DNA of 64,000 bases from Candidatus Azambacteria bacterium. GTDB lineage: Bacteria; Patescibacteriota; Minisyncoccia; UBA10092. Shown here piece after piece: positions 26,044-53,882 of this stretch (the stretch's first letter is position 1; every line of letters begins with the position of its first letter). The position numbers and the translations under genes are program-made. Where the stretch lies: assembly GCA_003455995.1 (NCBI GenBank), contig DMPO01000006.1:38397-102396 (forward strand), read 5' to 3'. The notes under the pieces were generated by a model, which had not been told where the DNA came from, ran no database searches, and worked only from the letters and a program-made list of their open reading frames with translations.

Positions 26044-27416
26044 TGAAAACTATTTTTATTACCGCTTATCATCCTTTTATCTCCAAAAACATTCTTAATA
26101 CGAATGTGTTTGGCATTTTGAAACAAAGAAAAAATTTAAGAATCATTCTTTTAGTTCCGGTTATTTTGAAAGATTTTTTTGAAAACAATTACCGTTTCGA
26201 CAATGTAGTGATTGAGAGTATCGATCTGGCGCCATTCTCAAAATCCCGCCTCAGCAATTTTTTTTCAAGAGCCGCTTTCTTTTTTACTTACAATCACTGG
26301 ATTAGATATAAAAGGATGGAATATTTAAATGCCCATTGGAGTTTTTATAACCTCGTGAAATTTCGTGTTTTTATGGTATTAACGCGAATTTTATCTGGGC
26401 ATAAAATTTTAAATAAAATTTTCAGATTTTTTGACTGGCGTTATTCGCCCAATAATTTTTATAAAGATTATTTTGAAAAATACAAACCCGATATTGTTTT
26501 TTCAACCGATGTTTATGACGATTTTGACCAGGCGCTGATTAAAGAAGCGAAAATAAGAAAGATCTTTGTTATCGGCATGATCCGCTCCTGGGATAATAAT
26601 ATCAGTAAAGGACTAATGAGATGCTTTCCGGATAAATTAATTGTTAATAATGAGGTAATTAAGAAAGAGGCGATAAAACTTCATAATTATCCAGAAGGAA
26701 ATATTTTCATCGGCGGCCTGCCGCAGTTTGACGATTATCTTAAGGCGCCTTTCAAAAGCCGAGAAGAGTTTTTCGAGTCGGCGGGCGGAGATCCCGAAAA
26801 AAGAACGGTTTTATTTTCACCCGGCAGCCGGGGAATTTCCGCGGATGCCAATATTATTATTTGCGAAGCGTTTAAAGCCGCAAAGGAAAGTGGTGATTTG
26901 CCCAAAGATATTCAATTTTTTATCAGAAACCATCCCACCAGGCCAGATAGGGCGCTGGAAAAATTCAAAAATGATTCCGATTTTATTATCGAAATGCCAG
27001 GAAAAATTAAAAATAGCGGGAAATTTCTCGAATTTTCACTTCAAGACAATCGCCATCTTATAGATACCATATATTATTCCGATGTTGTCGTCTGGATTGT
27101 AACCTCGATAGGACTGGACTCTTTAGTTTTTGATAAGCCGCAAATCGTAGTTGATTTTGACGGCCTTGAAAATAAGTCATACTGGTTAAGCGTCAAGCGG
27201 TTCAATGACGAAGAACACATGCTTTTATTCTTTGAAACAGGAGCCGTAAAAATAGCCGATAATTTGGAAAATTTAATTGTTTATATTAAAGAATATCTTG
27301 AAAATCCCTCCATTGATCGCGAAGGAAGAAAAAAAGCCGCTTTGCAACAGCTTTGGAAGGCGGATGGAAAATCAAGCGAAAGAATCGCAAATTTCATTTT
27401 ATCATTCCTTTTTTAA
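26043..27416 (+). CDS. Putative CDP-glycerol glycerophosphotransferase-like protein (TagB/TagF family), uncertain
   Basis: 458 aa soluble protein. The C-terminal half has a FFIRNHPTRPD segment reminiscent of the Glyphos_transf conserved His-Pro region. Context includes a cytidylyltransferase and an OPA transporter. Start placed at the TAATG overlap at 26043. Confidence 0.35.
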   Translation: MKTIFITAYHPFISKNILNTNVFGILKQRKNLRIILLVPVILKDFFENNYRFDNVVIESIDLAPFSKSRLSNFFSRAAFFFTYNHWIRYKRMEYLNAHWSFYNLVKFRVFMVLTRILSGHKILNKIFRFFDWRYSPNNFYKDYFEKYKPDIVFSTDVYDDFDQALIKEAKIRKIFVIGMIRSWDNNISKGLMRCFPDKLIVNNEVIKKEAIKLHNYPEGNIFIGGLPQFDDYLKAPFKSREEFFESAGGDPEKRTVLFSPGSRGISADANIIICEAFKAAKESGDLPKDIQFFIRNHPTRPDRALEKFKNDSDFIIEMPGKIKNSGKFLEFSLQDNRHLIDTIYYSDVVVWIVTSIGLDSLVFDKPQIVVDFDGLENKSYWLSVKRFNDEEHMLLFFETGAVKIADNLENLIVYIKEYLENPSIDREGRKKAALQQLWKADGKSSERIANFILSFLF

Positions 27417-28131
27417 GCTGGCGGAATTTATTTTCCATTTTCTCCCAGTCGGAAGGAATGTTGATGTCTTCATCGTAAAAATCGCTGACAATATAGGGCT
27501 CTTGCTTCTCGCCGCCGAAATAGCAGGGATTTTTTCCGTACAAAATTTTTGGCTTCAAAACAAAAACCAGATCATTTTTGACATAATATTTTGGCAGGAG
27601 CTGGCGGCGCGCCGGAGCGTATTTTACATTCTGGCCTATGGCGTTTAACAGTTCATAACTGTTGCCCCTTTTTACAGGCTGGACAATCCAATAAGGATGA
27701 TGATGGGCGGCCGATAATTCGGAAAGAGGGATCACCACATCTGGGTCTTTTTTCAAAAACAGTTCTATCGCCTCGTCAACCTGTTTAACGTTTCTTAAAG
27801 AATTGGGAGGCATCAGCAAGACGATGGCGTCGGTTTTATAATTTTCATATTTTTTCAGCCATTCTATGGCGTGCCTTAACACCGGCTCCATTTGCGTCGC
27901 GCTCCCGGCTAATTTTTTGGGGCGCAAAAAGGGCGTTTCGGCGCCGTATTTTTTTGCCACTTTGGCTATTTCGGGGCTATCGGTGGAAACAATGGTCCGG
28001 TTTATAAGAGGGCTTTTCAGAGCCGTCTCAATAGCCCAGGCAATCAACGGTTTACCGCAGAAATTTCTTATATTTTTTCCGGGAACCCCTTTTGAATCGC
28101 CCCGGGCAGGCACAATCGCCACGATTTTCAT
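27394..28131 (-). CDS. Acylneuraminate-type cytidylyltransferase (CMP-nonulosonic acid synthetase, NeuA/PseF/LegF family)
   Basis: MKIVAIVPARGDSKGVPGKNIRNFCGKPLIAWAIETA is the canonical CTP_transf_3 N-terminus. Confidence 0.8.
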   Translation of the reverse strand: MKIVAIVPARGDSKGVPGKNIRNFCGKPLIAWAIETALKSPLINRTIVSTDSPEIAKVAKKYGAETPFLRPKKLAGSATQMEPVLRHAIEWLKKYENYKTDAIVLLMPPNSLRNVKQVDEAIELFLKKDPDVVIPLSELSAAHHHPYWIVQPVKRGNSYELLNAIGQNVKYAPARRQLLPKYYVKNDLVFVLKPKILYGKNPCYFGGEKQEPYIVSDFYDEDINIPSDWEKMENKFRQLKKGMIK

Positions 28132-28158
28132 AATTTATGAAATAACATAAAATTAAAA

Positions 28159-28187
28159 ATCCCGCAACGAACGCGGGATTGTTTTTT
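28159..28187 (-). terminator. Hairpin terminator between B12-rSAM gene and CMP-sugar synthetase gene
   Basis: ATCCCGC-AACGAAC-GCGGGAT stem-loop flanked by A/T runs on both strands. Confidence 0.6.
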
Positions 28188-29847
28188 ACATTTCCAAAAT
28201 TTTATATATGTCGCCAGAATCAATGTATCCTCTGGCCTTGACGAAAATATCATCCGGCATGTCGCTGTAATTCAGCGGCTCGCCGGTCTTGGAATTGCGC
28301 AAAACCTTTGTGGCGTCATCCAGCTCCAAAATATACCGGCGCAGGTTTTCATCGCAAACCGGCTCGCCGACAAAATCAAAAGTAATTCCGAAAACTTCAC
28401 GCAGAATTTTTTGAACCTTGGATTGGTGGCCCATTTCCGTTCCCGGATACCAGGTGGCGGTGAACATTTTCTTGTTTACCGAGTCGGCGGACTTGCCGCG
28501 CGTACCATAAAATATCTCTTGCCACTCGATAAAAGCGACGCTCATTTTTAGGTCCTCAAGGGTCTCGGTTGGGTATCCCATTATCCAGGTGCAATTAGCG
28601 TGAATGCCGGCATTTTCGCAATCTATAACGCCCTCTATCATAGAGCTGGGGAATTCGCAAAATTTTCCATTGGCAATAATACCCTTAATCCCTTTTTTGA
28701 GAATAAATCCGCCTTTATTCATCGCTTTCAGGACTTTCGGCGAGGCGCTTTCGGCGCCGAAGCCGATATAAATGCATCCGGCTTCCGCCATTAAATTAAA
28801 TCCCTTTGATTCATCGAGGCGCGCGTGCGTCCCCCAGCGGATATTTAGCGGCTTAAGAAGGGGGACTAAATCAATGATTCTTTTATGGTCGATGGCGAAA
28901 TTATCGTCCACCATCCCAATGAAATCAACTCCATATTTTTCAATATGCATTCTGAATTCCTTGGCAAGATTTTGCGCTGATCGCGCGCCGTAATTTTTTT
29001 CGCCTTGCGCGCCGCGATAGCAGAAAGCGCAATTATACGGACAGCCCCGCGAAGAAACAAAGTTCGTGCTCCGATTCATCGTGAATGAAGCCGCTGAACT
29101 GTTGTTGGCGGAAGCGCCCCAAATTGGATTGCAGATATAGTATTCCAGAATCTTATTGCCAAAAACATCTTCTTTTAGAAAATCCAAATCGGCGAAAGGA
29201 ATGCAGTCCAAATCCCGCGGTCGGTCGCCTTCGTAAACGAAGCGATGCCGGCCGAATATTTCTCCTTTGCCGACTATCGAACCCAAATAATAGGGTTCCA
29301 ATTTTCCGGAATTAATCGCCCGCAAAAAACCCGTTTTTTTGAGAATTCTCGCGTCGTGGGCGGCTTTGACGATTACATCGTCGCCTTCGGAACGGACTAT
29401 GCCGTCCAGGTCGGGGATGTAATTGAAAAGCCCCGCTCTCAATTCGGTGGCGAGGCCGCCGCCGGAAACAAGAAAAACGATCGGCGCCAATTTGCGAACC
29501 ATTTTAGCGACTTTTTCCTGCCAGCGCAATGTGGTGATCATTCCCGAAAGGCCGACCAGATCCGGCTCGCCATGAACTTCAAAATGTTTTTTTATCAGTT
29601 CAAAAACTTCCTGTTCGGTAAGGTGCCGGCCGTTTATTCGATAGCCGTTCAAATCAACTATCGAAACATTAACCTCATAGTTATCGCGCAAATTAGTTGC
29701 CAGAAGCAGGGGGCCTTGGGGCGTGTTGTTTGGCGCCGCCGCTTCTCTTAAAGGCATATTGATAAAAACAACATTTAAGCCGCGCAGATCGGCCGGTTTG
29801 ATATCTTTGATGATATCCGCCGGGTGAATATAATCGCAACTTTTCAT
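28186..29847 (-). CDS. B12-binding domain radical SAM enzyme (class B rSAM, putative methyltransferase)
   Basis: CPYNCAFCY is the CxxxCxxC radical SAM cluster motif. The N-terminal ~150 aa has the cobalamin-binding Rossmann-like layout. The GGAGGAG SD is visible on the minus strand. Confidence 0.8.
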   Translation of the reverse strand: MKSCDYIHPADIIKDIKPADLRGLNVVFINMPLREAAAPNNTPQGPLLLATNLRDNYEVNVSIVDLNGYRINGRHLTEQEVFELIKKHFEVHGEPDLVGLSGMITTLRWQEKVAKMVRKLAPIVFLVSGGGLATELRAGLFNYIPDLDGIVRSEGDDVIVKAAHDARILKKTGFLRAINSGKLEPYYLGSIVGKGEIFGRHRFVYEGDRPRDLDCIPFADLDFLKEDVFGNKILEYYICNPIWGASANNSSAASFTMNRSTNFVSSRGCPYNCAFCYRGAQGEKNYGARSAQNLAKEFRMHIEKYGVDFIGMVDDNFAIDHKRIIDLVPLLKPLNIRWGTHARLDESKGFNLMAEAGCIYIGFGAESASPKVLKAMNKGGFILKKGIKGIIANGKFCEFPSSMIEGVIDCENAGIHANCTWIMGYPTETLEDLKMSVAFIEWQEIFYGTRGKSADSVNKKMFTATWYPGTEMGHQSKVQKILREVFGITFDFVGEPVCDENLRRYILELDDATKVLRNSKTGEPLNYSDMPDDIFVKARGYIDSGDIYKILEM

Positions 29848-29983
29848 AACTCTCCTCCGTTTTATTGTTAGATGTCAAAGACCGCTTTAATTGACGGAAA
29901 CGGTATCATAAAATTAAATCTTTGACAAGGCGATTATTTTATGGTAATTTTCAGTGTCAAAATTTCCCGAACTTTAACAACAA

Positions 29984-30014
29984 CCACCCTTCGGGTGGCC
30001 ACCCGTAGGGGTGG
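29984..30014 (+). promoter_or_regulatory. Twin stem-loop 5' leader element (CCACCC-UUCG-GGUGG then CCACCC-GUAG-GGGUGG) immediately upstream of the SD
   Basis: Two consecutive near-identical hairpins, one with a UUCG tetraloop, end 6 nt before AGGAGG (30021-30026) and the ATG at 30033. Confidence 0.4.
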
Positions 30015-30032
30015 AAAATTAGGAGGTTAAAA

Positions 30033-30911
30033 ATGAAAAAAATTGGATTCATTGGGTTGGGGACTATGGGTTTGCGGATGGTGCAGAGATTGCTTTCCGC
30101 CGGGTATAAGCTGACGGTATATAACCGGACGGCGGAAAAAGCGAACGCGCTGGTGGATAACGGCGCGCGATTTGCCGTCAATCCGAGGCAACTCGCGGAG
30201 CGTTCCGATGTAATTATTACAATGGTCAGTGATGGTCGGGCTGTTCGCGATGTTGCCGAGGGCGTATGGGGGGCATTTTCAGTAGCACAGCGGGGAACGG
30301 TTTTTATTGACTGCAGTACCATTTCGGTCGGGACAACCAAATATCTCGCTTTGAGAGCGGAAAATTTGGGATGCTATTGGCTGGACGCGCCGGCGCTTGG
30401 AGGCCCAGCGGCGGCTGAAGCCGGAGAATTGTCGTTCGTCGTTGGCGGGCCAAAAAATATTCTAGATGAAAATATAGAGATTTTTAACGCCCTCGGCAGA
30501 GTTACTTGGATGGGGGAGTGCGGCATGGGCCAGGCGGCCAAAATTGTCCATAATATGGCCTGCGGCATATCGTTAGCGGCATTCAGCGAAGCGATTATTC
30601 TGGGCGAAAAACTTGGTCTGGAAAGAAAACAAACGATAGAGACGCTATTAAACGGCGCGGTTGGAAGTCCTTTATTAAAGGTGAAGGCGCCTAAATTTGA
30701 AGAAAATGATTTTGAACCCGCTTTTGCGTTAACTATGATGTTAAAGGATTTAACCTTGGCGGAAGACGCCGCCAAAGAATCGGAACTGTTTCTCCCGGCG
30801 CTTTCGGCGGTCAAAAAGCTCTACAATTTAGCGAGAATACGCGGATTTGGCGACGAGGACTCGTCGGCCGTTATTAAAGCGTTTCAATTTTTGACGGAGG
30901 TGAAGCGATGA
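30033..30911 (+). CDS. NAD(P)-dependent beta-hydroxyacid dehydrogenase (HIBADH/tartronate-semialdehyde reductase/6PGDH-like family)
   Basis: MKKIGFIGLGTMGLRMVQRLLSAGYKLTVYNRT is the classic dinucleotide-binding N-terminus of this family. Confidence 0.75.
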   Translation: MKKIGFIGLGTMGLRMVQRLLSAGYKLTVYNRTAEKANALVDNGARFAVNPRQLAERSDVIITMVSDGRAVRDVAEGVWGAFSVAQRGTVFIDCSTISVGTTKYLALRAENLGCYWLDAPALGGPAAAEAGELSFVVGGPKNILDENIEIFNALGRVTWMGECGMGQAAKIVHNMACGISLAAFSEAIILGEKLGLERKQTIETLLNGAVGSPLLKVKAPKFEENDFEPAFALTMMLKDLTLAEDAAKESELFLPALSAVKKLYNLARIRGFGDEDSSAVIKAFQFLTEVKR

Positions 30912-32836
30912 ATGGCGCGGTGATAAAGATTATCCCCCAGTCGGAATTTGTCCGCGTTTGGCAAACAGGCGCAAATTTTTACGCTACGCTCTCTTTGATT
31001 GCCGACATGTGCCGCCTGAACGCGCTTTCGGCGGTTAAACGCGCCGGTTCCGGCCATCTTGGTTCCAGTTTCAGCGCGATGGATATTGTAACATATCTTT
31101 ATTGGTGGGAGATGAATACGATTCGGAAGGGCTTTGATAATCCGAATCGCGATATCTATTTTTCGTCAAAGGGACACGATGTTCCGGGGTTATACGCCGC
31201 GCTTTTTTCGCTTGGTATAATTTCGGAGGAACTTTTTCTGAAACTGCGCCGTCTCGGCGGCCTTCACGGCCATCCGGATATAAACAATTTAGGTATTGAG
31301 GCCAATTCTGGGTCGTTGGGAATGGGAATTTCCAAGGGCCGCGGAATGGCTTGGGCTAAAGAATATTTGGGATTGTCCGGACGAGTTTTCGTGATGACCG
31401 GCGATGGTGAGTTCCAGGAAGGGCAGAATTACGAGGCGCTTCAGGGAGCGGCGCAGTTAATGCAGGATCGCTTAATTGTGGTTATGGACCACAACAAGGT
31501 CCAAAGCGATAAATTGGTCAAAGAAATAGTTGACTTGGGCGATCTTGAAGCGAAGTTCTCGTCATTCGGTTGGTATGTTGAGCGTTGCAACGGCCATGAT
31601 TTTAAGGCGCTTGAAAAAACTTTCGCCAGAATCGATAAAATTACACAAAAACCAAAAATAATAATTGCCAACACAATCAAGGGCAAGGGCGTTTCTTTTA
31701 TGGAACACCCATATGCTCTTAAAGAAAATGGCATATATAAATGGCACGCCGGAGCGCCGGATGACGATTCTTACAAGGTAGCGTTTAAAGAATTGTTTGA
31801 AAAAATTAACACGCGGCTTGCAAAACTATTTTTGGATTCAATCACTACCAAAGAGGTGTGTGATGAAAAAGAGCCGGTCAATCAGAAAAAAGTATCCGGC
31901 GAATATATTGCCGATTCTTACGGCAAGGCGCTTGTGGCATTGGCCGCCGAGCGGGACGATTTCGTGGTATTGGACGCCGATTTGGCGGCGGATTGCCGAT
32001 TGCGCGATTTTGAAAAACAATTTCCGGAACGGTTTATCGAATGCGGCATCGCCGAGCAGGATATGGTGTCCATGGCCGGCGGCTTGGCGCGGCAGGGGAT
32101 TCTCCCGATTGTAAATTCCTTTGGAGCGTTTCTGTCATCGCGCGCCAATGAGCAAATTTACACCAACGCTTGCGAACGGTCCAAGATTATCTATGTTTGC
32201 CATTATGCCGGCCTCATTCCGGCCGGACCGGGAAAATCGCATCAGTGTCTTCGGGATGTCTCATTGTTCGGCGCGTTGCCGGATATGACTATCATTCAGC
32301 CATGCAATGCATGGGAGACGCGGCAGGCGCTTAATTATTGCGTCAATTTTACGGCCAACAGTTCTATGTTGCGTCTCAATATTGGTCCTTCTCCGCGCGT
32401 AATTGAGTTGCTGGCAGAATATGCTTTCACAAAAGGCATAGGCGCTGAACTGACAAAAGGGGAAGACGCGATTCTTTTCGCGTATGGGCCGGTGATGCTC
32501 AATGAAGCGCTTGCCGCTTCGGAGATATTGGCGAAAAAAGGATTTGGATTAAAAGTTGTCAATATGCCGTGGCTGAATTCAGTGGATGTTGAATGGTTAA
32601 GAGCGGTTTTAGGTCCGACTAAAAAAATATTCGTACTGGAAGACCACAATATAATCGGCGGTTTAGGAGATTTTCTGTTAAATCAATTTGTCACCAATAA
32701 ACTTTTGGAAGGGAAGACGTTCCGAAAATTCGGGATAACCGGATTGCCGGCCTGCGGCCGACCTGATGAAGTATTGAAATTTCACGGCCTTGATGGCGCA
32801 ACGTTTGCGAAAAAATCCAACAATAAGGAGGAATGA
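30908..32836 (+). CDS. Transketolase-family ThDP enzyme, fused N- and C-terminal halves
   Basis: GSGHLGSSFSAMDIV, GHPD...NSGSLGMGISKGRGMAWA and TGDGEFQEGQNYEAL in the N-terminal half. FIECGIAEQDMVSMAGGLA in the C-terminal half. An insertion of about 50 aa lies between the halves. Confidence 0.75.
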   Translation: MNGAVIKIIPQSEFVRVWQTGANFYATLSLIADMCRLNALSAVKRAGSGHLGSSFSAMDIVTYLYWWEMNTIRKGFDNPNRDIYFSSKGHDVPGLYAALFSLGIISEELFLKLRRLGGLHGHPDINNLGIEANSGSLGMGISKGRGMAWAKEYLGLSGRVFVMTGDGEFQEGQNYEALQGAAQLMQDRLIVVMDHNKVQSDKLVKEIVDLGDLEAKFSSFGWYVERCNGHDFKALEKTFARIDKITQKPKIIIANTIKGKGVSFMEHPYALKENGIYKWHAGAPDDDSYKVAFKELFEKINTRLAKLFLDSITTKEVCDEKEPVNQKKVSGEYIADSYGKALVALAAERDDFVVLDADLAADCRLRDFEKQFPERFIECGIAEQDMVSMAGGLARQGILPIVNSFGAFLSSRANEQIYTNACERSKIIYVCHYAGLIPAGPGKSHQCLRDVSLFGALPDMTIIQPCNAWETRQALNYCVNFTANSSMLRLNIGPSPRVIELLAEYAFTKGIGAELTKGEDAILFAYGPVMLNEALAASEILAKKGFGLKVVNMPWLNSVDVEWLRAVLGPTKKIFVLEDHNIIGGLGDFLLNQFVTNKLLEGKTFRKFGITGLPACGRPDEVLKFHGLDGATFAKKSNNKEE

Positions 32837-32840
32837 AGAT

Positions 32841-33347
32841 ATGGATTTTGAGTTGCTTGAAAAATTGCGAAAAATAAAACTTTTGGTGCTTGATTGCGAC
32901 GGCGTTCTGACTGACAGCTATGTCTATGTGAACAATGATGGCAATGAATTTTGTCGGTTTAGCCATCGCGATGGCAAGGGGATTCAACTGATTCGGGAAG
33001 CGGGGATTGAAGTGGCGATAATAACAAGCCAGAAAAGCCCCTATGTTAAAAAAAGATGCGATAAGATGGGCGTTGAATTTCACCAAGCCATTACGAACAA
33101 ACTAAGAAATCTTGGTGATATGCTTGAAGACAAAAAGATGCGTTTTCAAGAAGTTTGTTTTGTCGGCGACGATGTTAGCGACATCGCGGTAATGAATAAT
33201 GTCGGTTTGCCCATAGCGGTAGCCGATGCCGAAGAAGAAGTAAAAAAAATCACCGCATATATTACTAAAAGAAAAGGCGGCGAGCACGCCGTTCGCGAAG
33301 TTTGCAATCTGATTTTGGAAGCAAGAAGGTGTCGTAATGAATTCTGA
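32841..33347 (+). CDS. HAD-superfamily phosphatase, KdsC family (KDO-8-P / nonulosonate-9-P phosphatase type)
   Basis: LVLDCDGVLTD (DxDGV motif I) and FVGDDVSDIAVM (motif IV), about 170 aa. AAGGAGG SD before the ATG at 32841. Confidence 0.75.
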   Translation: MDFELLEKLRKIKLLVLDCDGVLTDSYVYVNNDGNEFCRFSHRDGKGIQLIREAGIEVAIITSQKSPYVKKRCDKMGVEFHQAITNKLRNLGDMLEDKKMRFQEVCFVGDDVSDIAVMNNVGLPIAVADAEEEVKKITAYITKRKGGEHAVREVCNLILEARRCRNEF

Positions 33348-34155
33348 AGCGTATAAAATGTTCTCGGTAGAGAACAAAGTGATTGTCATTACCGGCGGCG
33401 CCGGATTTCTTGGGATGCAATTTGCCAAAGCGTTAGGTTTGGCCGGCGCCCAGATTGTGATTTGGGACAATTGTGATTTCAGTTTTCTGCAATCGCAAGC
33501 CGTCTTGTTGAGGCAAAAAAATATCAAGTGCATTGCCCAAGATGTTGATTTAACGGATATGGTAGTAGTTAACAAAATGGCAAATTCGGTTATTGAAAAA
33601 TTTGACCGCATTGATGTTCTTATCAACAACGCCGCGCTCAATCCGGCTGTTGACAGCGCCGAAGCCGAGCAAATGTTCTCGCCTTACGAAAAATATCCCG
33701 TTGATCTGTTCAAGAAGGAGGTAGAAGTGGATTTGATTGGAACGCATCTTTGCATTCAGGCGGCGGCGCCGCAAATGATAAAGCGAAGATCGGGGGTGAT
33801 TTTAAATATCTCCTCCGAATACGCCAATATTGCCGCCGACAATCGAATCTACGGCGAAGGTCAGTTCAAGTCCATCGCCTATATTGCCGCCAAAAGTGGA
33901 GTTCTCGGACTCACTCGAGGCTGGGCGTCTTATCTGGGAGAGTATGGCGTTCGCGTTAACGCTTTTACTCCCGGTGGCATGCCCAAGCCGGAAGTGTCGG
34001 AAGAATTCCGACGAAAATATTCTTCACTAAATATGCTGGGGCGGACGGCAAATCCCGGAGAATATGACGGCGCGATTTTGTTCTTGTGTTCCGACGCTTC
34101 CTCATTTATGACCGGCAATCAGCTTGTCATGGATGGCGGCAAAAGCGCATGGTGA
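33337..34155 (+). CDS. Short-chain dehydrogenase/reductase (classical SDR)
   Basis: VIVITGGAGFLG Rossmann motif, NNAA, YIAAK catalytic YxxxK. The exact start is uncertain between 33337 and 33358. Confidence 0.7.
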   Translation: MNSEAYKMFSVENKVIVITGGAGFLGMQFAKALGLAGAQIVIWDNCDFSFLQSQAVLLRQKNIKCIAQDVDLTDMVVVNKMANSVIEKFDRIDVLINNAALNPAVDSAEAEQMFSPYEKYPVDLFKKEVEVDLIGTHLCIQAAAPQMIKRRSGVILNISSEYANIAADNRIYGEGQFKSIAYIAAKSGVLGLTRGWASYLGEYGVRVNAFTPGGMPKPEVSEEFRRKYSSLNMLGRTANPGEYDGAILFLCSDASSFMTGNQLVMDGGKSAW

Positions 34156-34169
34156 GAGAAGGAGGGCAT

Positions 34170-35042
34170 ATGGTAAAAATAGAAAACATATTTGTCGGAG
34201 ACGACCACCCATGTTTTATAGTCGCCGAAATCGGAATCAATCATAATGGCAGTTTGGAAATTGCCAAAAAGATGATTGATTTGGCGGCCGAATCCGGCTG
34301 CGATGCCGTGAAATTTCAAAAACGGACGCCGGATTTATGCGTTCCCGACGAACAGAAAAATATGATGTACGAAACCCCTTGGGGGTTGATACCGTATATC
34401 GAATACCGGCATAAGATTGAATTCGGGCAGAAGGGATATGAACAAATTGATGATTATTGCCGGAGGAAAGGAATCATGTGGTTCGCTTCCTGTTGGGACG
34501 AAGATAGCGTCGATTTTATCGAAAAGTTCGATCCTCCTTGCTACAAAATCGGCTCGGCGTCTTTAACCGACAGAAATCTTTTGCTCCATACTCGGTTTAA
34601 AAACAAGCCCGTTATTCTTTCAACGGGGATGAGCACGATGGAGCAGGTTTATGGCGCAGTTGATACTTTGGGGAGAGAGGACTTAATCCTCTTGCACTGT
34701 GTCGGGACTTATCCCGTGCCCGATCATGAAAATAATTTGAGGGTTATCAATACCCTGCGGGAAACATTTCCGGAAGTGCCGATTGGATACAGCGGGCATT
34801 GCCGCGGCACCACTTTGGGCGTTTGCGCCGTCGCCTTGGGCGCTTGCGTAGTAGAGAGGCACATCACGCTTGACCGCGAAATGTGGGGGTCCAATCAGGC
34901 GGCAAGCTTGGGGCCGGAGGGACTTAAGCTGATGGTCGGCAACATCCGCCGGCTGGAACTCGCTTTAGGCGACGGAGTCAAGAGAGTTTTAGAATCGGAG
35001 GTTCCTCTGATTATGAAGCTCCGCCGAAAAGTTGATTTTTGA
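34170..35042 (+). CDS. N-acylneuraminate/nonulosonate synthase family protein (NeuB-like TIM barrel), lacking C-terminal SAF domain
   Basis: MVKIENIFVGDDHPCFIVAEIGINHNGSLEIAKKMIDLAAESGCDAVKFQKR is the hallmark NeuB N-terminus. GAAGGAGGG SD before the ATG at 34170. 291 aa, shorter than typical ~340-aa NeuB. Confidence 0.75.
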   Translation: MVKIENIFVGDDHPCFIVAEIGINHNGSLEIAKKMIDLAAESGCDAVKFQKRTPDLCVPDEQKNMMYETPWGLIPYIEYRHKIEFGQKGYEQIDDYCRRKGIMWFASCWDEDSVDFIEKFDPPCYKIGSASLTDRNLLLHTRFKNKPVILSTGMSTMEQVYGAVDTLGREDLILLHCVGTYPVPDHENNLRVINTLRETFPEVPIGYSGHCRGTTLGVCAVALGACVVERHITLDREMWGSNQAASLGPEGLKLMVGNIRRLELALGDGVKRVLESEVPLIMKLRRKVDF

Positions 35043-35091: not shown

Positions 35092-35115
35092 GCCCCGTTA
35101 ACTAACGGGGCTTTT
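35092..35115 (+). terminator. Rho-independent terminator (shared convergent-gene region)
   Basis: GCCCCGTTA-loop-TAACGGGGC followed by TTTT. Overlaps the stop codon of the minus-strand flippase gene. Confidence 0.65.
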
Positions 35116-50328: not shown

Positions 50329-51383
50329 CTCGAATAGCAATTAACGGTTTTGGGCGGATCGGAAGGGTCTTTTTTCGTTGCGCTTTTGGCCAATCGGATA
50401 TAGAAATTGTCGCCATAAATGATTTGGGCGCCGCCGAAAATATGGCGTATCTTTTGAAATATGACTCGGTTTACGGCCCTTATGAAAAATCGGTAGAGTC
50501 CGGTCCGGAAGTTCTGATTGTTGACGGCAAAGAAATTAAAATGATGCGGCAAAAAGATCCCGCTCTATTGCCATGGGGCGATTTGAATATCGATATCGTC
50601 ATCGAATCGACCGGGGTTTTTGAAACGTATGAAAAATCGGCGGCGCATTTAACCGCCGGCGCCAAGCGCGTGATTATTGCCGCGCCCGCCAAAGATGACG
50701 CTACCCCTACGGCTACTCCGAATGTCGGGGAAGAATTTTTGAAATTGAATAAAATAACTTCGGCCGCTTCTTGCACCACTAACGCGGCGACTCCGATAAT
50801 GTCTGCGCTGTCAAAAAATCCCGGCATTAAAAAAGCCGTTTTGAATACCGTCCATGCCTATACGGCGTCCCAAAAGGTAATTGATGGTTCCGATAATAAT
50901 AATGATTACAGAAAAAACAGAGCGGCGGCGCAAAATATTATTCCTTCGACAACCGGCGCCGCGCTTACGGCTACAAAGGTCTTTCCGCCGCTAGAAGGAA
51001 AATTTGATGGCGTCTCTTTAAGGGTGCCGGTAATTTGCGGTTCCATTATTGATTTTACTTTTGTAGCCGAAAGACCGACTTCCGTTGAAGAAATAAACAA
51101 TATTTTGAAAAAAGCCGCGCAAGAAAAACAATGGCAGGAAATTCTGGCGGTTACCGAAGAACAGCTGGTTTCCAGCGACATTCTTAAAAATCCCAATGGT
51201 TCCATCGTCGATCTCAATATGACCAAGGTCGTTGACGGCGATTTGGTTAAAATTTTATCATGGTATGACAATGAATGGGGGTATGCAAACCGTTTAGTAG
51301 AACAGGTAATTAGAGTAGGAAGAACACTAGAAGGTGGAATAGCTCCAACTGACCCATTAACTCTAAGTCATACAAATGGATAA
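50325..51383 (+). CDS. gap: Glyceraldehyde-3-phosphate dehydrogenase (type I)
   Basis: INGFGRIGR, ASCTTN (catalytic Cys), WYDNEWGY C-terminal motif. The last ~25 codons form an unusual C-terminal extension written in a different codon style. Confidence 0.85.
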   Translation: MTRIAINGFGRIGRVFFRCAFGQSDIEIVAINDLGAAENMAYLLKYDSVYGPYEKSVESGPEVLIVDGKEIKMMRQKDPALLPWGDLNIDIVIESTGVFETYEKSAAHLTAGAKRVIIAAPAKDDATPTATPNVGEEFLKLNKITSAASCTTNAATPIMSALSKNPGIKKAVLNTVHAYTASQKVIDGSDNNNDYRKNRAAAQNIIPSTTGAALTATKVFPPLEGKFDGVSLRVPVICGSIIDFTFVAERPTSVEEINNILKKAAQEKQWQEILAVTEEQLVSSDILKNPNGSIVDLNMTKVVDGDLVKILSWYDNEWGYANRLVEQVIRVGRTLEGGIAPTDPLTLSHTNG

Positions 51384-52025: not shown

Positions 52026-52874
52026 ATGAAATACACAATTGAAGATCTGGAGAAAATTGCTATAGAGGTAAGAGAGGATATTGTCAAAATGATTTTAAAA
52101 GCAGGTGCAGGACATCCTGCAGGATCTTTAGGTATGGTTGAAGTCTTTGTGGCACTTTACTATGCCATTTTAAATCATGATCCTAAAAATCCCAATTGGG
52201 AAGATAGGGATAGATTAATTCTTTCAAATGGCCATATTTGTCCCGCTCGTTATGCAGTAATGAGTCATGTAGGTTATTTTGAACATAAAGAACTTTTAAA
52301 ATTTGGTGGATTTGGCAGAATTTTGCAAGGTCATCCGGACAAAAGATTTTTACCTTCTCTTGAAACAACTTCGGGGCCATTAGGCTGTGGACTTGCTCAA
52401 GGATGTGGTATTGCCATAGGGGCTAAGATGGATAAAAAAAGGTTTAGAACTTTTGTAATAACTTCAGATGGGGAACATGATGAAGGAAATCATTGGGAGG
52501 CTGTTGCCTTTGCTGGGAAAAACAATTTAAGTAATTTAACTTTAATTGTTGATAGAAATAATATTCAGATTGATGGATTTACTGAAAATGTGATGCCACT
52601 TGAACCTTTAGCTTCTAAATACCAAGCTTTTGGTTGGTCTACTATAGAAATTGATGGTCATAATTTTTCTGAAATTGTTAATGCAGCAAATAAAGCTCGT
52701 GCAATTTATGAAAACCCAACAGTAATTATTGCAAAAACAATTCCAGGTAAAGGAGTTCCTTTTATGGAGGGAAATCCTAATTGGCATGCAAAGGCACCAA
52801 GTTCAGATGAAGCAAAACAGGCAATTATTGATATCAGAACAATGCAGGGGAAAATCAAAACTTATGGGGAATAA
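52026..52874 (+). CDS. Transketolase, N-terminal (ThDP-binding) subunit
   Basis: GHPAGSLGMVEV, DRLILSNGHICPARYAV, GHPD...TSGPLGCGLAQGCGIAIG and SDGEHDEGNHWEA are split-transketolase signatures. Confidence 0.85.
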   Translation: MKYTIEDLEKIAIEVREDIVKMILKAGAGHPAGSLGMVEVFVALYYAILNHDPKNPNWEDRDRLILSNGHICPARYAVMSHVGYFEHKELLKFGGFGRILQGHPDKRFLPSLETTSGPLGCGLAQGCGIAIGAKMDKKRFRTFVITSDGEHDEGNHWEAVAFAGKNNLSNLTLIVDRNNIQIDGFTENVMPLEPLASKYQAFGWSTIEIDGHNFSEIVNAANKARAIYENPTVIIAKTIPGKGVPFMEGNPNWHAKAPSSDEAKQAIIDIRTMQGKIKTYGE

Positions 52875-52886
52875 ATAAAAATTATT

Positions 52887-53882
52887 ATGGTTAACAATAA
52901 ATTAAACTTATCAGATCAATTATTTAAAAAAGATATAGAAAAAAAATTCATGAGAGACGGATTTGGTGAGGGACTTTTAACGGCAGGTGAAAAGGATGAA
53001 AGAATTGTTGTTTTAACAGCTGATTTAAAAGAATCAACAAGGGTTAATCTTTTTGCAGATTCCTTTCCAGAAAGATTTATTGAAGTTGGAGTTTCCGAAC
53101 AAGCGATGGTAACAATTGCATCAGGTCTTGCTAATTACGGAAAAATTCCATTTTGCAGTTCATATGCTGTCTTTAGCCCGGGAAGAAATTGGGAACAGAT
53201 TAGAACAACAATTGGAATAGATAATTATCCTGTAAAAATAATTGGAGCGCAATCAGGACTTAATATTGGTCATTATGGAGTAACACATCAAGGCCTGGAA
53301 GACATTGCTCTTGCCCGTGTTATTCCAAACATGAATGCTATCGTTCCAAGTGATTATATTGAGGCAAAAAAAGCGACTTTAGAGATTGCAAAGAGTGATA
53401 AACCTTACTATATGAGACTACCTAGAATTGATAGTCCTGTCTATACCACAGATAAAACTCCATTTAAAATTGGAAAGGCCAATATTTTAACTGAAAGTAA
53501 AATTCCAGAAGTAGCAATTATTGCAACTGGTTTATTGGTTTATAAAGCGCTTTTAGCATATAAAGAACTAGAAAAAAATGGAATAGAAACAATTGTAGTA
53601 AATATGCATACAATAAAACCTTTAGATGAAGAAACAGTTATAAGAAGTGCAAAATTAACAGGAGCTGTTGTTACAGTTGAAGAACATCAGATAATTGGTG
53701 GATTGGGATCCGCGATATCAGAAAGTTTATCTAAAAATTTTCCTGTACCAATGGAAATATTGGGAGTAAAAGATAGGTTTGGACAATCAGGAACTCCAAA
53801 AGAGTTATTTGAAGAATATAATTTGACTAAGGAAGACATTATTAAAGCCGTTAAAAAAGTTATAAGCAGGAAAAATTCTTAA
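52887..53882 (+). CDS. Transketolase, C-terminal (pyrimidine-binding) subunit
   Basis: FIEVGVSEQAMVTIASGLA and the downstream TK_C-like domain. Follows the N-terminal subunit after a 12-nt gap. Confidence 0.85.
   Translation: MVNNKLNLSDQLFKKDIEKKFMRDGFGEGLLTAGEKDERIVVLTADLKESTRVNLFADSFPERFIEVGVSEQAMVTIASGLANYGKIPFCSSYAVFSPGRNWEQIRTTIGIDNYPVKIIGAQSGLNIGHYGVTHQGLEDIALARVIPNMNAIVPSDYIEAKKATLEIAKSDKPYYMRLPRIDSPVYTTDKTPFKIGKANILTESKIPEVAIIATGLLVYKALLAYKELEKNGIETIVVNMHTIKPLDEETVIRSAKLTGAVVTVEEHQIIGGLGSAISESLSKNFPVPMEILGVKDRFGQSGTPKELFEEYNLTKEDIIKAVKKVISRKNS

What the first reader, a model, noticed from the sequence alone, without database searches (positions are those of the whole stretch)
30908..32836. 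Two transketolase systems: a fused 642-aa paralog in the sugar-acid island and a canonical split TK pair at 52026-53882
The fused enzyme carries all TK motifs in one chain, with an insertion of about 50 aa between the halves. It is written in the GC-rich codon style. The split pair lies 20 kb away in the AT-rich style. Redundant TKs with different architecture, and co-location of one with NeuB/KdsC/NeuA, argue that the fused copy is a specialised ketol-transferase for sugar tailoring. ThDP-dependent TK or pyruvate-dehydrogenase-like enzymes that install two-carbon branches on sugars in natural-product pathways are a precedent.
Basis: partly seen in the sequence, partly recalled or inferred. 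Interest (0 to 1): 0.6.

Follow-up and report, generated by a model that had tools for sequence, protein, structure and literature searches.

The report
Transketolase-like enzyme in ulosonic-acid sugar cassette
The fused "transketolase" belongs to a widespread, uncharacterised branch of the transketolase family that has lost its sugar-phosphate site and is always encoded with genes for a sialic-acid-like sugar, so it probably tailors that sugar, whereas the "second" transketolase 20 kb away sits beyond a mis-join in the contig and belongs to another organism.

Summary
Both gene sets exist as described. The 642-aa ORF at 30908-32836 has all three transketolase (TK) domains and every ThDP and catalytic residue. 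It has lost the sugar-phosphate site: human R318/S345/H416/D424/R474 read A/D/Y/P/I. It fails the curated TK and DXS score cut-offs.

It belongs to a single clade (unbootstrapped tree) present in at least 546 species genomes across many phyla. Members 41-78% identical to it mostly sit beside a CMP-ulosonate cytidylyltransferase, and usually beside NeuB, a KdsC-type phosphatase, an SDR and one aldehyde-handling enzyme. That last enzyme is an aldehyde dehydrogenase in most loci, a HIBADH-type reductase here, and a class-III aminotransferase in Bacteroidales.

My best model is inferred, not shown. The SDR oxidises the penultimate carbon of the dephosphorylated ulosonic acid, the TK-like enzyme removes the terminal C2 unit, and the new aldehyde is reduced, oxidised or aminated before or after CMP activation. 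The precedent is 5-ketogluconate cleavage by an E. coli TktA mutated at three of these positions.

The split TK is the housekeeping enzyme of a glycolysis/pentose-phosphate operon. It lies beyond a chimeric junction inside GAPDH (51261-51287). "Two TKs in one genome" and the codon-style argument therefore fail.

The parts
30908..32836 (+). Fused 642-aa transketolase-like protein (S345D clade). It keeps the ThDP and catalytic residues and has lost the sugar-phosphate site.
   Evidence: Pfam finds the three TK domains. NCBIfam TK model NF004559 scores 396.7 against a cut-off of 488, and DXS TIGR00204 scores 175 against 466. The residue signature at the human R318/S345/H416/D424/Q428/R474 positions is A335/D362/Y433/P441/H445/I492.
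30033..30911 (+). HIBADH / tartronate-semialdehyde-reductase-like NAD(P) dehydrogenase. It overlaps the TK-like start by 4 nt. Proposed role: reductase for the aldehyde made by the TK-like enzyme.
   Evidence: Pfam NAD_binding_2 plus NAD_binding_11. Best NCBIfam hit is 2-hydroxy-3-oxopropionate reductase, 211 bits against a cut-off of 341. The same position is conserved in Parcubacteria loci L001 and L002. An aldehyde dehydrogenase or an Aminotran_3 gene takes this role in other lineages.
32841..33347 (+). KdsC/YrbI-family HAD phosphatase (ulosonate-phosphate phosphatase type).
   Evidence: TIGR01670 scores 154.5, above its cut-off of 107. The KdsC equivalog scores 160 against 208, and the Kdn-9-P phosphatase model scores 117 against 180.
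33337..34155 (+). Short-chain dehydrogenase. Proposed role: oxidises the penultimate carbon of the sugar acid to make the ketol that the TK-like enzyme cleaves.
   Evidence: Pfam adh_short_C2. Best NCBIfam hit is the gluconate 5-dehydrogenase subfamily, 147.6 bits against a cut-off of 279. No close solved homologue with a known sugar substrate was found. It is present in 41 of 64 loci with enough flank.
34167..35042 (+). NeuB-family PEP-condensing ulosonic-acid synthase, short form without the SAF domain.
   Evidence: Pfam NeuB, 258 bits. NeuB_NnaB scores 257 against 400, and PseI scores 212 against 340. PDB matches are SpsE, PseI and NeuB.
27394..28131 (-). CMP-ulosonate cytidylyltransferase (CTP_transf_3, PseF/NeuA/KdsB type).
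   Evidence: Pfam CTP_transf_3. PseF scores 137 against a cut-off of 206. In most other loci this gene lies immediately upstream of the TK-like gene.
28186..29847 (-). B12-binding radical SAM enzyme, possibly a methyltransferase. It is specific to the Parcubacteria version of the cassette.
   Evidence: Pfam Radical_SAM plus B12-binding. There are only weak hits to P-/C-methyltransferase rSAM families. It is present in L001 and L002 and absent from the other loci.
29848..30032 (.). Divergent intergenic region between the rSAM-cytidylyltransferase operon and the HIBADH-TK-HAD-SDR-NeuB operon.
   Evidence: A promoter-like site matching 11 of 12 positions lies on the minus strand (29960-29933). 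An AGGAGG ribosome-binding site precedes the ATG at 30033.
35092..35111 (+). Terminator-like GC-rich hairpin followed by a T run, 50 nt after the NeuB stop codon. It marks the end of the five-gene operon.
52026..53882 (+). Split transketolase (N subunit 52026-52874, C subunit 52887-53882). It is the housekeeping enzyme of a GAPDH-LOG-TK-FBA-PfkB operon and belongs to the Woesebacteria-like part of the contig.
   Evidence: Scores to TK model NF004559 are 283 and 282.5 bits. The C subunit scores 281 bits against the characterised C. hydrogenoformans split TK. R318, S345 and R474 are kept. Synteny with TIM, RpiB, PGK, GAPDH and FBA is seen in L091. It clusters with canonical TKs.
51261..51287 (+). 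Junction of two different genomes inside the GAPDH ORF, at the conserved WYDNEWGYA motif.
   Evidence: GC3 drops at this point from 0.42 in GAPDH to 0.16 in the next ORF. Nucleotide identity to L091 rises from 0.33-0.68 to 0.72-0.92. The GAPDH protein is 100% identical to P0391 before the motif, and its tail after the motif resembles the L091 GAPDH tail.

Best explanation
The ORF at 30908-32836 is a specialised ThDP enzyme of the transketolase superfamily. It works inside a pathway for a CMP-activated 3-deoxy-2-ulosonic acid, a sialic-acid/Kdn/Kdo-like sugar destined for a cell-surface glycan.

Proposed sequence (every step inferred; none assayed):
1. The NeuB homologue condenses PEP with an aldose phosphate.
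2. The KdsC-type phosphatase frees the terminal CH2OH.
3. The SDR oxidises the penultimate carbon. This creates a terminal HOCH2-CO-CHOH- motif, which is the transketolase donor motif. It is the same logic as gluconate to 5-ketogluconate.
4. The TK-like enzyme cleaves off that two-carbon unit as dihydroxyethyl-ThDP. The sugar acid is left two carbons shorter with a new terminal aldehyde.
5. The aldehyde is reduced to an alcohol by the HIBADH-like enzyme in this window and in Parcubacteria. In most other phyla an aldehyde dehydrogenase oxidises it to a second carboxylate, giving an ulosaric acid. In Bacteroidales a class-III aminotransferase aminates it.
6. The cytidylyltransferase activates the product for transfer. 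The order of activation relative to trimming is unknown.

Shown directly: the domain architecture, the retained cofactor and catalytic residues, the loss of the phosphate site, the clade, and the conserved gene neighbourhood.

Separately, the split TK at 52026-53882 is an ordinary central-metabolism transketolase from a different organism, joined to this locus by a chimeric assembly.
For: 1. All ThDP and catalytic residues are invariant in 121 family members: human H37, H77, H110, D155, N185, H258, E366, F392. The phosphate and C2-OH site is replaced: R318 to A/V/S/G, S345 to D, H416 to Y/F, D424 to P, R474 to I/V. 87 translated relatives taken from fetched loci, plus the window's own protein, show the same pattern, as does the wider clade.
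2. E. coli TktA mutated at three of these positions (R358I/H461S/R520Q) has enhanced activity on the unphosphorylated sugar acid 5-ketogluconate, giving tartaric semialdehyde (PMC12016104). The route TK followed by semialdehyde dehydrogenase has been proposed for tartrate formation (PMC7970118).
3. The neighbourhood is conserved. Of 64 loci with at least 7 kb upstream, NeuB is present in 51, the cytidylyltransferase in 47, an SDR in 41, an aldehyde dehydrogenase in 41 and the HAD phosphatase in 33. Searches show this in Parcubacteria, Marinimicrobia, Anaerolineae and Deltaproteobacteria (plus one unlabelled ENA contig); the scan adds further phyla and one archaeon.
4. Clade members only 41-48% identical keep this context.
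5. The variable partner is always an aldehyde-handling enzyme. The aldehyde dehydrogenase is closest to 2-keto-acid semialdehyde dehydrogenases. The HIBADH-type enzyme is closest to tartronate semialdehyde reductase. The aminotransferase is class III.
6. The TK signature is the same in all three variants apart from the A/V/S/T spread at position 318. This fits a common TK substrate upstream of the step that diverges.
7. The SDR's best curated match is gluconate 5-dehydrogenase, which is a penultimate-carbon oxidation.
8. A YrbI-type phosphatase implies a terminally phosphorylated ulosonate that must be freed first.
9. From my own stereochemical reasoning, 8-keto-Kdn would present the D-threo configuration that TK donors need, with C7-OH free in the pyranose form.
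Against: - No step has been assayed.
- The fate of the C2 unit is unknown. Ordinary TKs need an acceptor aldehyde and release glycolaldehyde poorly.
- Twelve loci, eleven of them Chloroflexota, have NeuB-(aldehyde dehydrogenase)-cytidylyltransferase-TK with no intact SDR or HAD in 20 kb (L054 keeps only split SDR fragments).
- Eleven Ignavibacteriota-type loci, including the isolate Melioribacter sp. Ez-97, carry the gene with no glycan genes nearby.
- The SDR and NeuB matches are generic and below all equivalog cut-offs.
- I found no report of a natural glycan containing such a trimmed sugar from these mostly uncultured organisms.
- A TK-family precedent exists for the opposite reaction, hydroxyacetyl transfer onto a keto sugar (PMC12247030).
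Confidence: 0.45

Rival explanations
1. C2 addition. The SDR (or the HIBADH-like enzyme) makes a keto or aldehyde group on the ulosonic acid. The TK-like enzyme then transfers a two-carbon ketol onto it from hydroxypyruvate or a ketose. The result is a branched or chain-extended higher-carbon sugar acid.
For: TK-family enzymes have been proposed to transfer a hydroxyacetyl unit to a keto sugar in miharamycin and amipurimycin biosynthesis (PMC12247030). An SDR is encoded next to the TK-like gene in most loci. In the window the HIBADH-like gene is translationally coupled to the TK-like gene. Its family includes glycerate/tartronate-semialdehyde enzymes that could feed a hydroxypyruvate-type donor.
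Against: It gives no role to the near-universal aldehyde dehydrogenase of the main cassette type. It also does not explain why that enzyme is replaced by a semialdehyde reductase or an omega-aminotransferase. Loss of every phosphate-binding residue removes the usual ketose-phosphate donors. Ketone acceptors are exceptional for TKs.
Confidence: 0.2
2. Trimming comes first and condensation second. A hexose-level precursor has its C1 already oxidised, reduced or aminated by the variable enzyme. The SDR then oxidises its penultimate carbon and the TK-like enzyme cleaves it. The new four-carbon aldehyde (for example a tetruronate, as in 5-ketogluconate to tartaric semialdehyde) is the substrate that NeuB condenses with PEP. 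The product is a seven-carbon ulosonic or ulosaric acid.
For: The enzyme set and the 5-ketogluconate precedent are the same as in the main model (PMC12016104, PMC7970118). PEP plus a tetruronate would give a 3-deoxy-heptulosaric acid directly. It would also explain loci that lack the phosphatase.
Against: A YrbI-type ulosonate-phosphate phosphatase would have no role, yet it is present in 33 of 64 loci. The TK substrate would differ between the three variants, but the TK pocket signature is the same in all three apart from the A/V/S/T spread at position 318.
Confidence: 0.12
3. Alpha-keto-acid decarboxylase or carboligase, in the manner of DXS. ThDP attacks C2 of the 2-keto-3-deoxy acid and CO2 is lost. 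The resulting 2-deoxy-aldehyde is released or ligated, and the variable enzyme then processes it.
For: Ulosonic acids are alpha-keto acids. Public records often name family members DXS, and the DXP_synthase_N model gives a partial hit. This would also produce an aldehyde for the variable partner.
Against: It would destroy the anomeric 2-keto acid that CTP_transf_3 enzymes activate, yet the cytidylyltransferase is the most tightly linked neighbour. The protein is much closer to TK than to DXS: 232 against 108 bits in PDB and 397 against 175 bits in NCBIfam.
Confidence: 0.06
4. It is an ordinary or redundant pentose-phosphate transketolase, or DXS, that happens to lie in a glycan island.
For: It has the full TK architecture and catalytic residues. 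In Ignavibacteriota-type loci the gene stands alone, outside glycan loci.
Against: It scores below the curated TK and DXS cut-offs. R318, S345, H416, D424 and R474 are all replaced. It forms a separate clade. The glycan context is conserved across phyla.
Confidence: 0.03

Closest known systems
Canonical short-type and split transketolases (human TKT, PDB 3MOS/4KXU; Carboxydothermus hydrogenoformans split TK, PDB 6YAJ/6YAK)
   Same: It has the same three-domain fold order, the GDG...N ThDP/metal motif, and the catalytic His and Glu residues. Human TKT is the best solved match, at 232 bits over residues 31-634.
   Different: All residues that hold the substrate phosphate (R318, S345, H416, R474) and the Asp that reads the acceptor C2-OH are replaced. 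It scores below the curated TK cut-off, forms a separate clade, and sits in a glycan context rather than a pentose-phosphate context.
Engineered E. coli TktA R358I/H461S/R520Q acting on 5-keto-D-gluconate (tartaric semialdehyde route)
   Same: Substitutions fall at the same three phosphate-binding positions. The proposed logic is the same: penultimate-carbon oxidation, then TK cleavage of C2 from an unphosphorylated sugar acid, then a semialdehyde dehydrogenase (PMC12016104, PMC7970118).
   Different: That enzyme is a laboratory mutant used in a catabolic or production setting. Here the changes are natural, invariant across a large clade, accompanied by S345D and D424P, and embedded in a biosynthetic CMP-sugar cassette.
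Kdn / Kdo pathways (PEP-condensing synthase, YrbI-type phosphatase, CMP-transferase; for example the Bacteroides thetaiotaomicron Kdn-9-P synthase and phosphatase). This comparison rests on my own knowledge.
   Same: The cassette contains the same trio: a NeuB-family synthase, a KdsC/YrbI phosphatase and a CTP_transf_3 cytidylyltransferase.
   Different: The known pathways contain no ThDP enzyme, no SDR and no aldehyde-processing enzyme. None of the proteins here reaches the equivalog cut-offs for NeuB, PseI, KdsC, Kdn-9-P phosphatase or PseF.
Kdo8N pathway of Shewanella (KdnB alcohol dehydrogenase plus KdnA aminotransferase acting on the Kdo tail). This comparison rests on my own knowledge.
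   Same: The tail of an ulosonic acid is tailored through an aldehyde intermediate that is then transaminated. This parallels the Bacteroidales variant, which carries a class-III aminotransferase.
   Different: In Kdo8N the aldehyde comes from direct oxidation of the terminal alcohol, with no carbon loss and no ThDP enzyme.
TK-type and other ThDP enzymes that add two-carbon units to keto sugars (miharamycin/amipurimycin TKs; YerE; AviB1/B2-type E1 enzymes)
   Same: They are ThDP-dependent enzymes that tailor a sugar, encoded in a sugar-pathway cluster, often next to an oxidoreductase (PMC12247030).
   Different: YerE belongs to the decarboxylase (AHAS-like) superfamily and the AviB type to the E1 dehydrogenases. 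The protein here matches neither: there is no E1_dh hit on the fused protein, and E1_dh is only a weak precomputed hit on some relatives. Those enzymes act on NDP-4-keto sugars in antibiotic or O-antigen deoxysugar routes, and no aldehyde-processing partner is involved.
1-deoxy-D-xylulose-5-phosphate synthase (DXS)
   Same: It belongs to the same superfamily. Many public records of this family are named DXS.
   Different: TIGR00204 scores 175 bits against a cut-off of 466. Only part of the DXP_synthase_N model is matched. It falls in the TK branch, not the DXS branch, by PDB scores. The DXS annotation is almost certainly wrong.

Membership tests
Transketolase (EC 2.2.1.1) | Three-domain architecture (PP domain, Pyr domain, C-terminal domain) | tested here: met
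   PF00456 matches residues 31-273, PF02779 matches 336-489 and PF02780 matches 515-630.
Transketolase (EC 2.2.1.1) | ThDP/metal-binding motif and catalytic residues (human H37, H77, H110, D155, N185, H258, E366) | tested here: met
   All are present in the window protein and invariant in 121 homologues and in the 87 relatives translated from fetched loci.
Transketolase (EC 2.2.1.1) | Substrate phosphate-binding residues (human R318, S345, H416, R474; E. coli R358, S385, H461, R520) | tested here: not met
   The window protein has A335, D362, Y433 and I492. The pattern is the same across the clade. The window's split TK keeps R, S and R.
Transketolase (EC 2.2.1.1) | Asp that binds the C2-OH of the aldose (human D424, yeast D477) | tested here: not met
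   Pro441 occupies this position, and Pro is invariant there in the 121-sequence alignment.
Transketolase (EC 2.2.1.1) | Curated family-model score (NCBIfam equivalogs NF004559, NF004556, TIGR00232) | tested here: not met
   Scores are 396.7 against a cut-off of 488, 317 against 575, and 170 against 682. The L006 homologue gives the same result.
Transketolase (EC 2.2.1.1) | Ketol transfer between Xu5P/F6P/S7P and R5P/E4P/GAP | not testable with these tools
   This needs an enzyme assay.
DXS (1-deoxy-D-xylulose-5-phosphate synthase) | Curated family-model score | tested here: not met
   TIGR00204 scores 175 against a cut-off of 466, and NF003933 scores 149 against 395.
S345D clade of TK-like proteins (defined here) | Signature x-D-[YFLM]-[PA]-H-x at the human 318/345/416/424/428/474 positions, with intact catalytic residues | tested here: met
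   The window protein reads A-D-Y-P-H-I. 47 representatives plus one revertant form a single clade in an unbootstrapped NJ tree.
S345D clade of TK-like proteins (defined here) | Encoded beside a CTP_transf_3 cytidylyltransferase and a NeuB-family synthase | tested here: met
   In the window, NeuB lies 1.3 kb downstream and the cytidylyltransferase 2.8 kb upstream. In relatives, 51 and 47 of 64 loci respectively carry them. Distant members keep the context in L088 and L089. Exceptions are the Ignavibacteriota-type loci.
YerE / AviB-type branch-forming ThDP enzymes | AHAS-like (TPP_enzyme_N/M/C) or E1 alpha/beta architecture | tested here: not met
   There are no TPP_enzyme domains and no E1_dh hit on the fused protein.
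Housekeeping split transketolase (for 52026-53882) | Two subunits that together cover the TK model, keep the phosphate-site Arg/Ser/Arg, and lie in a central-carbon context | tested here: met
   Scores to NF004559 are 283 and 282.5 bits. The C subunit scores 281 bits to 6YAJ. The signature reads R-S-...-R. The operon with GAPDH, FBA and PfkB, and TIM/RpiB/PGK upstream in L091, gives the context. Note that H416 is Q and D424 is Y, which is unusual.

The most novel reading that the evidence does not exclude
A large, previously unrecognised clade of transketolase-like enzymes defines a new way of making bacterial acidic sugars. The clade is present in at least 546 species-level genomes, spread over many bacterial phyla and at least one archaeal MAG. 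In this reading, a sialic-acid/Kdn-like ulosonic acid is shortened by two carbons through an enzymatic equivalent of periodate trimming (SDR oxidation followed by ThDP-dependent C-C cleavage). The resulting aldehyde is diversified by lineage into a carboxylate (a 3-deoxy-heptulosaric acid, the Dha type of sugar whose biosynthesis is unknown), an alcohol or an amine, with CMP activation before or after this trimming.
Probability: 0.4. Interest if true: 0.75.

Novelty: new variant of a known kind. Interest (0 to 1): 0.6.

Why it matters
- **A new class of surface sugars.** If the model holds, it would reveal cell-surface sugars (two-carbon-trimmed ulosonic acids with acid, alcohol or amine tails) in many uncultured phyla, including CPR bacteria.
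- **A new use of transketolase chemistry.** It would be a natural example of transketolase retooled for an unphosphorylated sugar-acid substrate. This is directly useful to groups engineering TKs for 5-ketogluconate and tartrate.
- **A candidate route to ulosaric acids.** It offers a candidate enzymatic logic for ulosaric acids such as Dha. The activated form of Dha, and the enzymes that make it, had not been identified as of 2012 (PMC3355719).
- **Annotation.** Many of the public records seen for this family are named DXS or transketolase, and those names are probably wrong.
- **Method.** Codon-style contrasts within a metagenomic contig can be assembly chimeras rather than horizontal transfer.

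Tried and rejected
- **Literature.** I searched for a link between transketolase and NeuB, nonulosonic or ulosonic acid, sialic acid synthase or O-antigen. Nothing relevant turned up. Searches on heptulosaric and ulosaric acids gave only plant RG-II and algal reports, with no biosynthetic genes.
- **Solved structures.** PDB searches with the SDR and NeuB proteins returned only generic family matches, with no information on substrate.
- **Junction check by exact look-up.** Exact-sequence look-ups of the window's LOG-like and GAPDH proteins found nothing on record. For GAPDH that is itself consistent with the hybrid ORF being unique to this contig.
- **Missing SDR in Chloroflexota loci.** I checked whether this was a threshold artefact. 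It was not: there are no SDR or HAD hits at all in L011, L022, L039, L012 or L034, and Pfam scans of the remaining ORFs in L011 and L039 showed no oxidoreductase.
- **Product identity.** I considered that the product is Dha itself. My stereochemical bookkeeping suggests that a Kdn-derived or 5-ketogluconate-derived product would not have the D-lyxo configuration, so I claim only the sugar class.
- **Horizontal transfer as the cause of the GC contrast with the split TK.** I rejected this in favour of the chimeric junction. A milder GC3 excess of the cassette over its immediate flanks does exist, both here and in L001.
- **Not done.** I ran no structure prediction or fold search. The fold is not in doubt, and the tools return no pocket geometry.

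Full report

The ORF at 30908-32836 (+) encodes 642 aa with Transketolase_N (residues 31-273), Transket_pyr (336-489) and Transketolase_C (515-630) domains. The ORFs at 52026-52874 and 52887-53882 encode the N-terminal and the pyrimidine-binding/C-terminal halves of a split transketolase.

The fused gene lies in a tight five-gene operon:
- a HIBADH-like dehydrogenase at 30033-30911, which overlaps the TK-like start;
- the TK-like gene;
- a KdsC/YrbI-type HAD phosphatase at 32841-33347;
- an SDR at 33337-34155;
- a NeuB homologue at 34167-35042.

A terminator-like hairpin at 35092-35111 closes the operon. Upstream, a B12-radical-SAM gene and a PseF/NeuA-type cytidylyltransferase are transcribed divergently. 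Around the operon are flippase, initiating-transferase, Wzy, GT4 and TagF-like genes.

The '50-aa insertion' is not an insertion. The stretch between the WHAGAP and SYGKAL motifs is 52 residues. The two tails of the split subunits sum to 48, and human TK has about 58.

**2. The two systems are probably not in one genome.**

Every ORF from 1 to 51.3 kb has GC3 between 0.31 and 0.57. Every ORF from 51,376 to the end has GC3 between 0.14 and 0.23. The switch falls inside GAPDH (50325-51383).

- Close homologues of the split TK are Woesebacteria/Microgenomates proteins, at 82-89% identity.
- One such contig, L091, carries TIM-RpiB-PGK-GAPDH-LOG-TK_N-TK_C-FBA-PfkB in the same order.
- Nucleotide identity between the window and L091 is 0.33-0.68 across GAPDH up to 51,266, and 0.72-0.92 from 51,267 onward.
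- The window's GAPDH protein is 100% identical to P0391, a 335-aa GAPDH whose nearest named relatives are Azambacteria proteins, up to WYDNEWGYA. It then switches to the Woesebacteria-type tail in place of the native AMLLKHVLAVSKLL.

A join at a highly conserved motif (nt 51261-51287) is what a chimeric assembly looks like. 'Redundant TKs in one genome' is therefore not established, and the join, not horizontal transfer of the fused copy, explains the codon-style contrast.

The split TK itself is the housekeeping enzyme:
- Its two subunits score 283 and 282.5 bits to the TK model NF004559.
- Its C subunit scores 281 bits to the characterised C. hydrogenoformans split TK.
- It keeps R318, S345 and R474.
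- It clusters with canonical TKs.

**3. What the fused protein is.**

Human TK is its best solved relative, at 232 bits; DXS scores about 108. It fails the curated cut-offs for TK (396.7 against 488) and for DXS (175 against 466).

I aligned it with human TK, whose sequence I verified against the PDB alignment, and with 120 homologues. The cofactor and catalytic residues H37, H77, H110, D155, N185, H258, E366 and F392 are invariant. The substrate-phosphate site and the C2-OH-binding Asp are replaced: R318 to A/V/S/G, S345 to D, H416 to Y/F, D424 to P, R474 to I/V. The 87 relatives translated from fetched loci show the same signature.

A search of 1.84 billion 50%-identity representatives shows the core family collapsing to one representative (780 bits). 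Below it comes a continuum of full-length relatives from 576 down to about 290 bits that carry the same type of signature (x-D-[LYFM]-[PA]-H-x). Canonical R-S-H-D-[HQ]-R transketolases appear only from about 308 bits downward.

In a neighbour-joining tree without support values, all 47 S345D sequences plus one revertant form a single clade. That clade is separate from the canonical TKs, from the window's split TK, and from a W37/...YDHR sister group.

**4. Where its relatives live.**

Homologues 57-78% identical occur in Parcubacteria, Chloroflexota, Acidobacteriota, Desulfobacterota, Bacteroidota, Ignavibacteriota, Gemmatimonadota, Planctomycetota, Marinimicrobia, a Thiogranum and one Methanoregulaceae MAG.

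Of 64 loci with at least 7 kb upstream, 51 have NeuB, 47 the cytidylyltransferase, 41 an SDR, 41 an aldehyde dehydrogenase and 33 the HAD phosphatase within 9 kb.

The commonest order is NeuB(+SAF)-HAD-SDR-aldehyde dehydrogenase-cytidylyltransferase-TK. The variants are:
- **Parcubacteria and this window:** a HIBADH-like gene replaces the aldehyde dehydrogenase.
- **Bacteroidales:** cytidylyltransferase-TK-class-III aminotransferase-SDR-HAD-NeuB.
- **Chloroflexota:** NeuB-aldehyde dehydrogenase-cytidylyltransferase-TK, with no SDR or HAD in 20 kb.
- **Ignavibacteriota-type loci, including Melioribacter:** the gene stands alone among unrelated genes.

Clade members only 41-48% identical still sit in NeuB-SDR-aldehyde dehydrogenase-cytidylyltransferase-TK or cytidylyltransferase-TK-HAD-Wzy-KpsS/C-like loci. 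No protein of the cassette reaches an NCBIfam equivalog cut-off.

**5. How it most likely works.**

Three facts constrain the chemistry.

First, the enzyme keeps everything needed for ThDP catalysis but has lost the binding site for a sugar phosphate. Its substrate is therefore not an ordinary ketose or aldose phosphate.

Second, its constant partners make and activate a 3-deoxy-2-ulosonic acid. The YrbI-type phosphatase implies that the acid is first made with a terminal phosphate, which is then removed.

Third, the one partner that changes between lineages is always an enzyme that disposes of an aldehyde:
- an aldehyde dehydrogenase closest to 2-keto-acid semialdehyde dehydrogenases (GucD, 2,5-dioxovalerate dehydrogenase);
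- a tartronate-semialdehyde-reductase-like enzyme;
- or a class-III aminotransferase.

The simplest scheme is as follows. The SDR, whose best curated match is gluconate 5-dehydrogenase, oxidises the penultimate carbon of the freed tail. The resulting HOCH2-CO-CHOH- motif is a transketolase donor. The TK-like enzyme removes the C2 unit. The new aldehyde is then reduced (here), oxidised (most phyla) or aminated (Bacteroidales).

The same three-step logic has been proposed for 5-ketogluconate to tartaric semialdehyde to tartrate (PMC7970118). The E. coli TktA variant with improved activity on 5-ketogluconate carries R358I/H461S/R520Q, mutations at three of the positions naturally replaced here (PMC12016104).

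The TK signature is the same in all three cassette variants apart from the A/V/S/T spread at position 318. This fits a common substrate upstream of the diverging step.

From my own stereochemical reasoning, 8-keto-Kdn would have the D-threo configuration that TK donors require, with C7-OH free in the pyranose. A C9-to-C7 trimming is therefore plausible. The identity of the sugar is not determined. All pathway steps are inference, and I put this model at about 0.45.

**6. Rival explanations.**

- **C2 addition (about 0.2).** The TK-like enzyme adds a C2 unit to an oxidised sugar, giving a branch or chain extension. It has a TK-family precedent in miharamycin/amipurimycin (PMC12247030). It does not explain the aldehyde-processing partner, and it would need a non-phosphorylated donor.
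- **Trimming before condensation (about 0.12).** A hexonate-level precursor is trimmed before NeuB acts. This uses the same enzymes but leaves the phosphatase without a role.
- **DXS-like decarboxylation of the keto acid (about 0.06).** This would destroy the group that the cytidylyltransferase activates.
- **Ordinary TK or DXS (about 0.03).** This is contradicted by the scores, the residues, the clade and the context.

**7. Weak points.**

- The acceptor or fate of the C2 unit is unknown.
- Some loci lack the SDR and the phosphatase.
- The Ignavibacteriota-type genes stand alone.
- No trimmed ulosonic acid has been reported from these organisms in the literature I could search.
- The tree has no support values.

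**8. Verdict.**

The fused gene is a real, intact member of a large uncharacterised transketolase-like clade dedicated to CMP-ulosonic-acid glycan pathways. It is a new variant of a known enzyme kind, with a testable and fairly specific mechanistic hypothesis.

The contrast with the split TK was an artefact of a chimeric contig.

Noticed in passing
window 51261-51287 (inside the GAPDH ORF at 50325-51383): This is a chimeric junction. Left of it the sequence is Azambacteria/Parcubacteria-like (GAPDH 100% identical to P0391; GC3 0.31-0.57). Right of it the sequence is Woesebacteria-like (72-92% nucleotide identity to L091; GC3 0.14-0.23). The hybrid GAPDH ORF carries a foreign C-terminal tail.
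   Followed up: yes
window 52887-53882 (split TK C subunit): This otherwise ordinary split transketolase has Gln and Tyr where human TK and the characterised C. hydrogenoformans split TK have His416 and Asp424 (GAQSGLNIGHYGVTHQ against ATHAGLTVGEDGASHQ). I did not examine whether close Microgenomates homologues share this.
   Followed up: partly
window 28186-29847 (-) and 44804-46333 (-); L001 3054-4577 and 7228-8952: The Parcubacteria versions of the glycan locus carry two radical-SAM genes: both have B12-binding domains in the window, one of the two in L001. Their substrate is unknown. They may C-methylate the sugar or another part of the glycan. They are absent from the cassette in other phyla.
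   Followed up: no
L077 9989-11953 (Melioribacter sp. Ez-97) and 10 further Ignavibacteriota-type loci (L049, L062, L069, L072, L078, L079, L081-L083, L087): A subgroup with the signature T-D-F-P-H-I is encoded alone, next to a TPR histidine kinase, DinB, Memo-like and tryptophanase-like genes, with no glycan genes within 10 kb. Its role may differ. Ez-97 is a cultured isolate and could be used for experiments.
   Followed up: partly
L006 12002-13699, L007 11974-13677 and 9 other loci; L003 12310-13725; L011 11984-13399: Proteins of about 565 aa or about 471 aa with no Pfam or NCBIfam match often lie directly downstream of the TK-like gene. They are candidates for the glycosyltransferase or polymerase that handles the new sugar.
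   Followed up: no
representatives P0192, P0200, P0212, P0223, P0228, P0233, P0251, P0257: The sister clade of the S345D group has Trp in place of the catalytic His37 equivalent and mostly Gly at the R318 position, but keeps S345, D424 and, in seven of the eight, R474. This is another uncharacterised TK-like group.
   Followed up: no
L089 6965-8704 and L090 6009-7748: In a distant clade member's locus, a protein with a weak Capsule_synth hit (PF05159, the KpsS/KpsC beta-Kdo-transferase family) follows cytidylyltransferase-TK-HAD-Wzy. This is consistent with transfer of a Kdo-like sugar.
   Followed up: no
window 27394-35042 compared with its flanks; L001 4640-14377: Within the left (Parcubacteria-like) part of the window, the cassette genes are moderately GC3-richer (mostly 0.50-0.55; the HAD gene 0.42) than the glycan genes upstream (0.31-0.41). 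A weaker form of the same pattern is seen in L001. The cassette may have been acquired from a GC-richer donor.
   Followed up: partly
public records of P0005, P0010, P0018, P0056, P0058, P0074: Members of this family are annotated in public databases as 1-deoxy-D-xylulose-5-phosphate synthase. They score far below the DXS model cut-off, so the name is probably wrong.
   Followed up: yes
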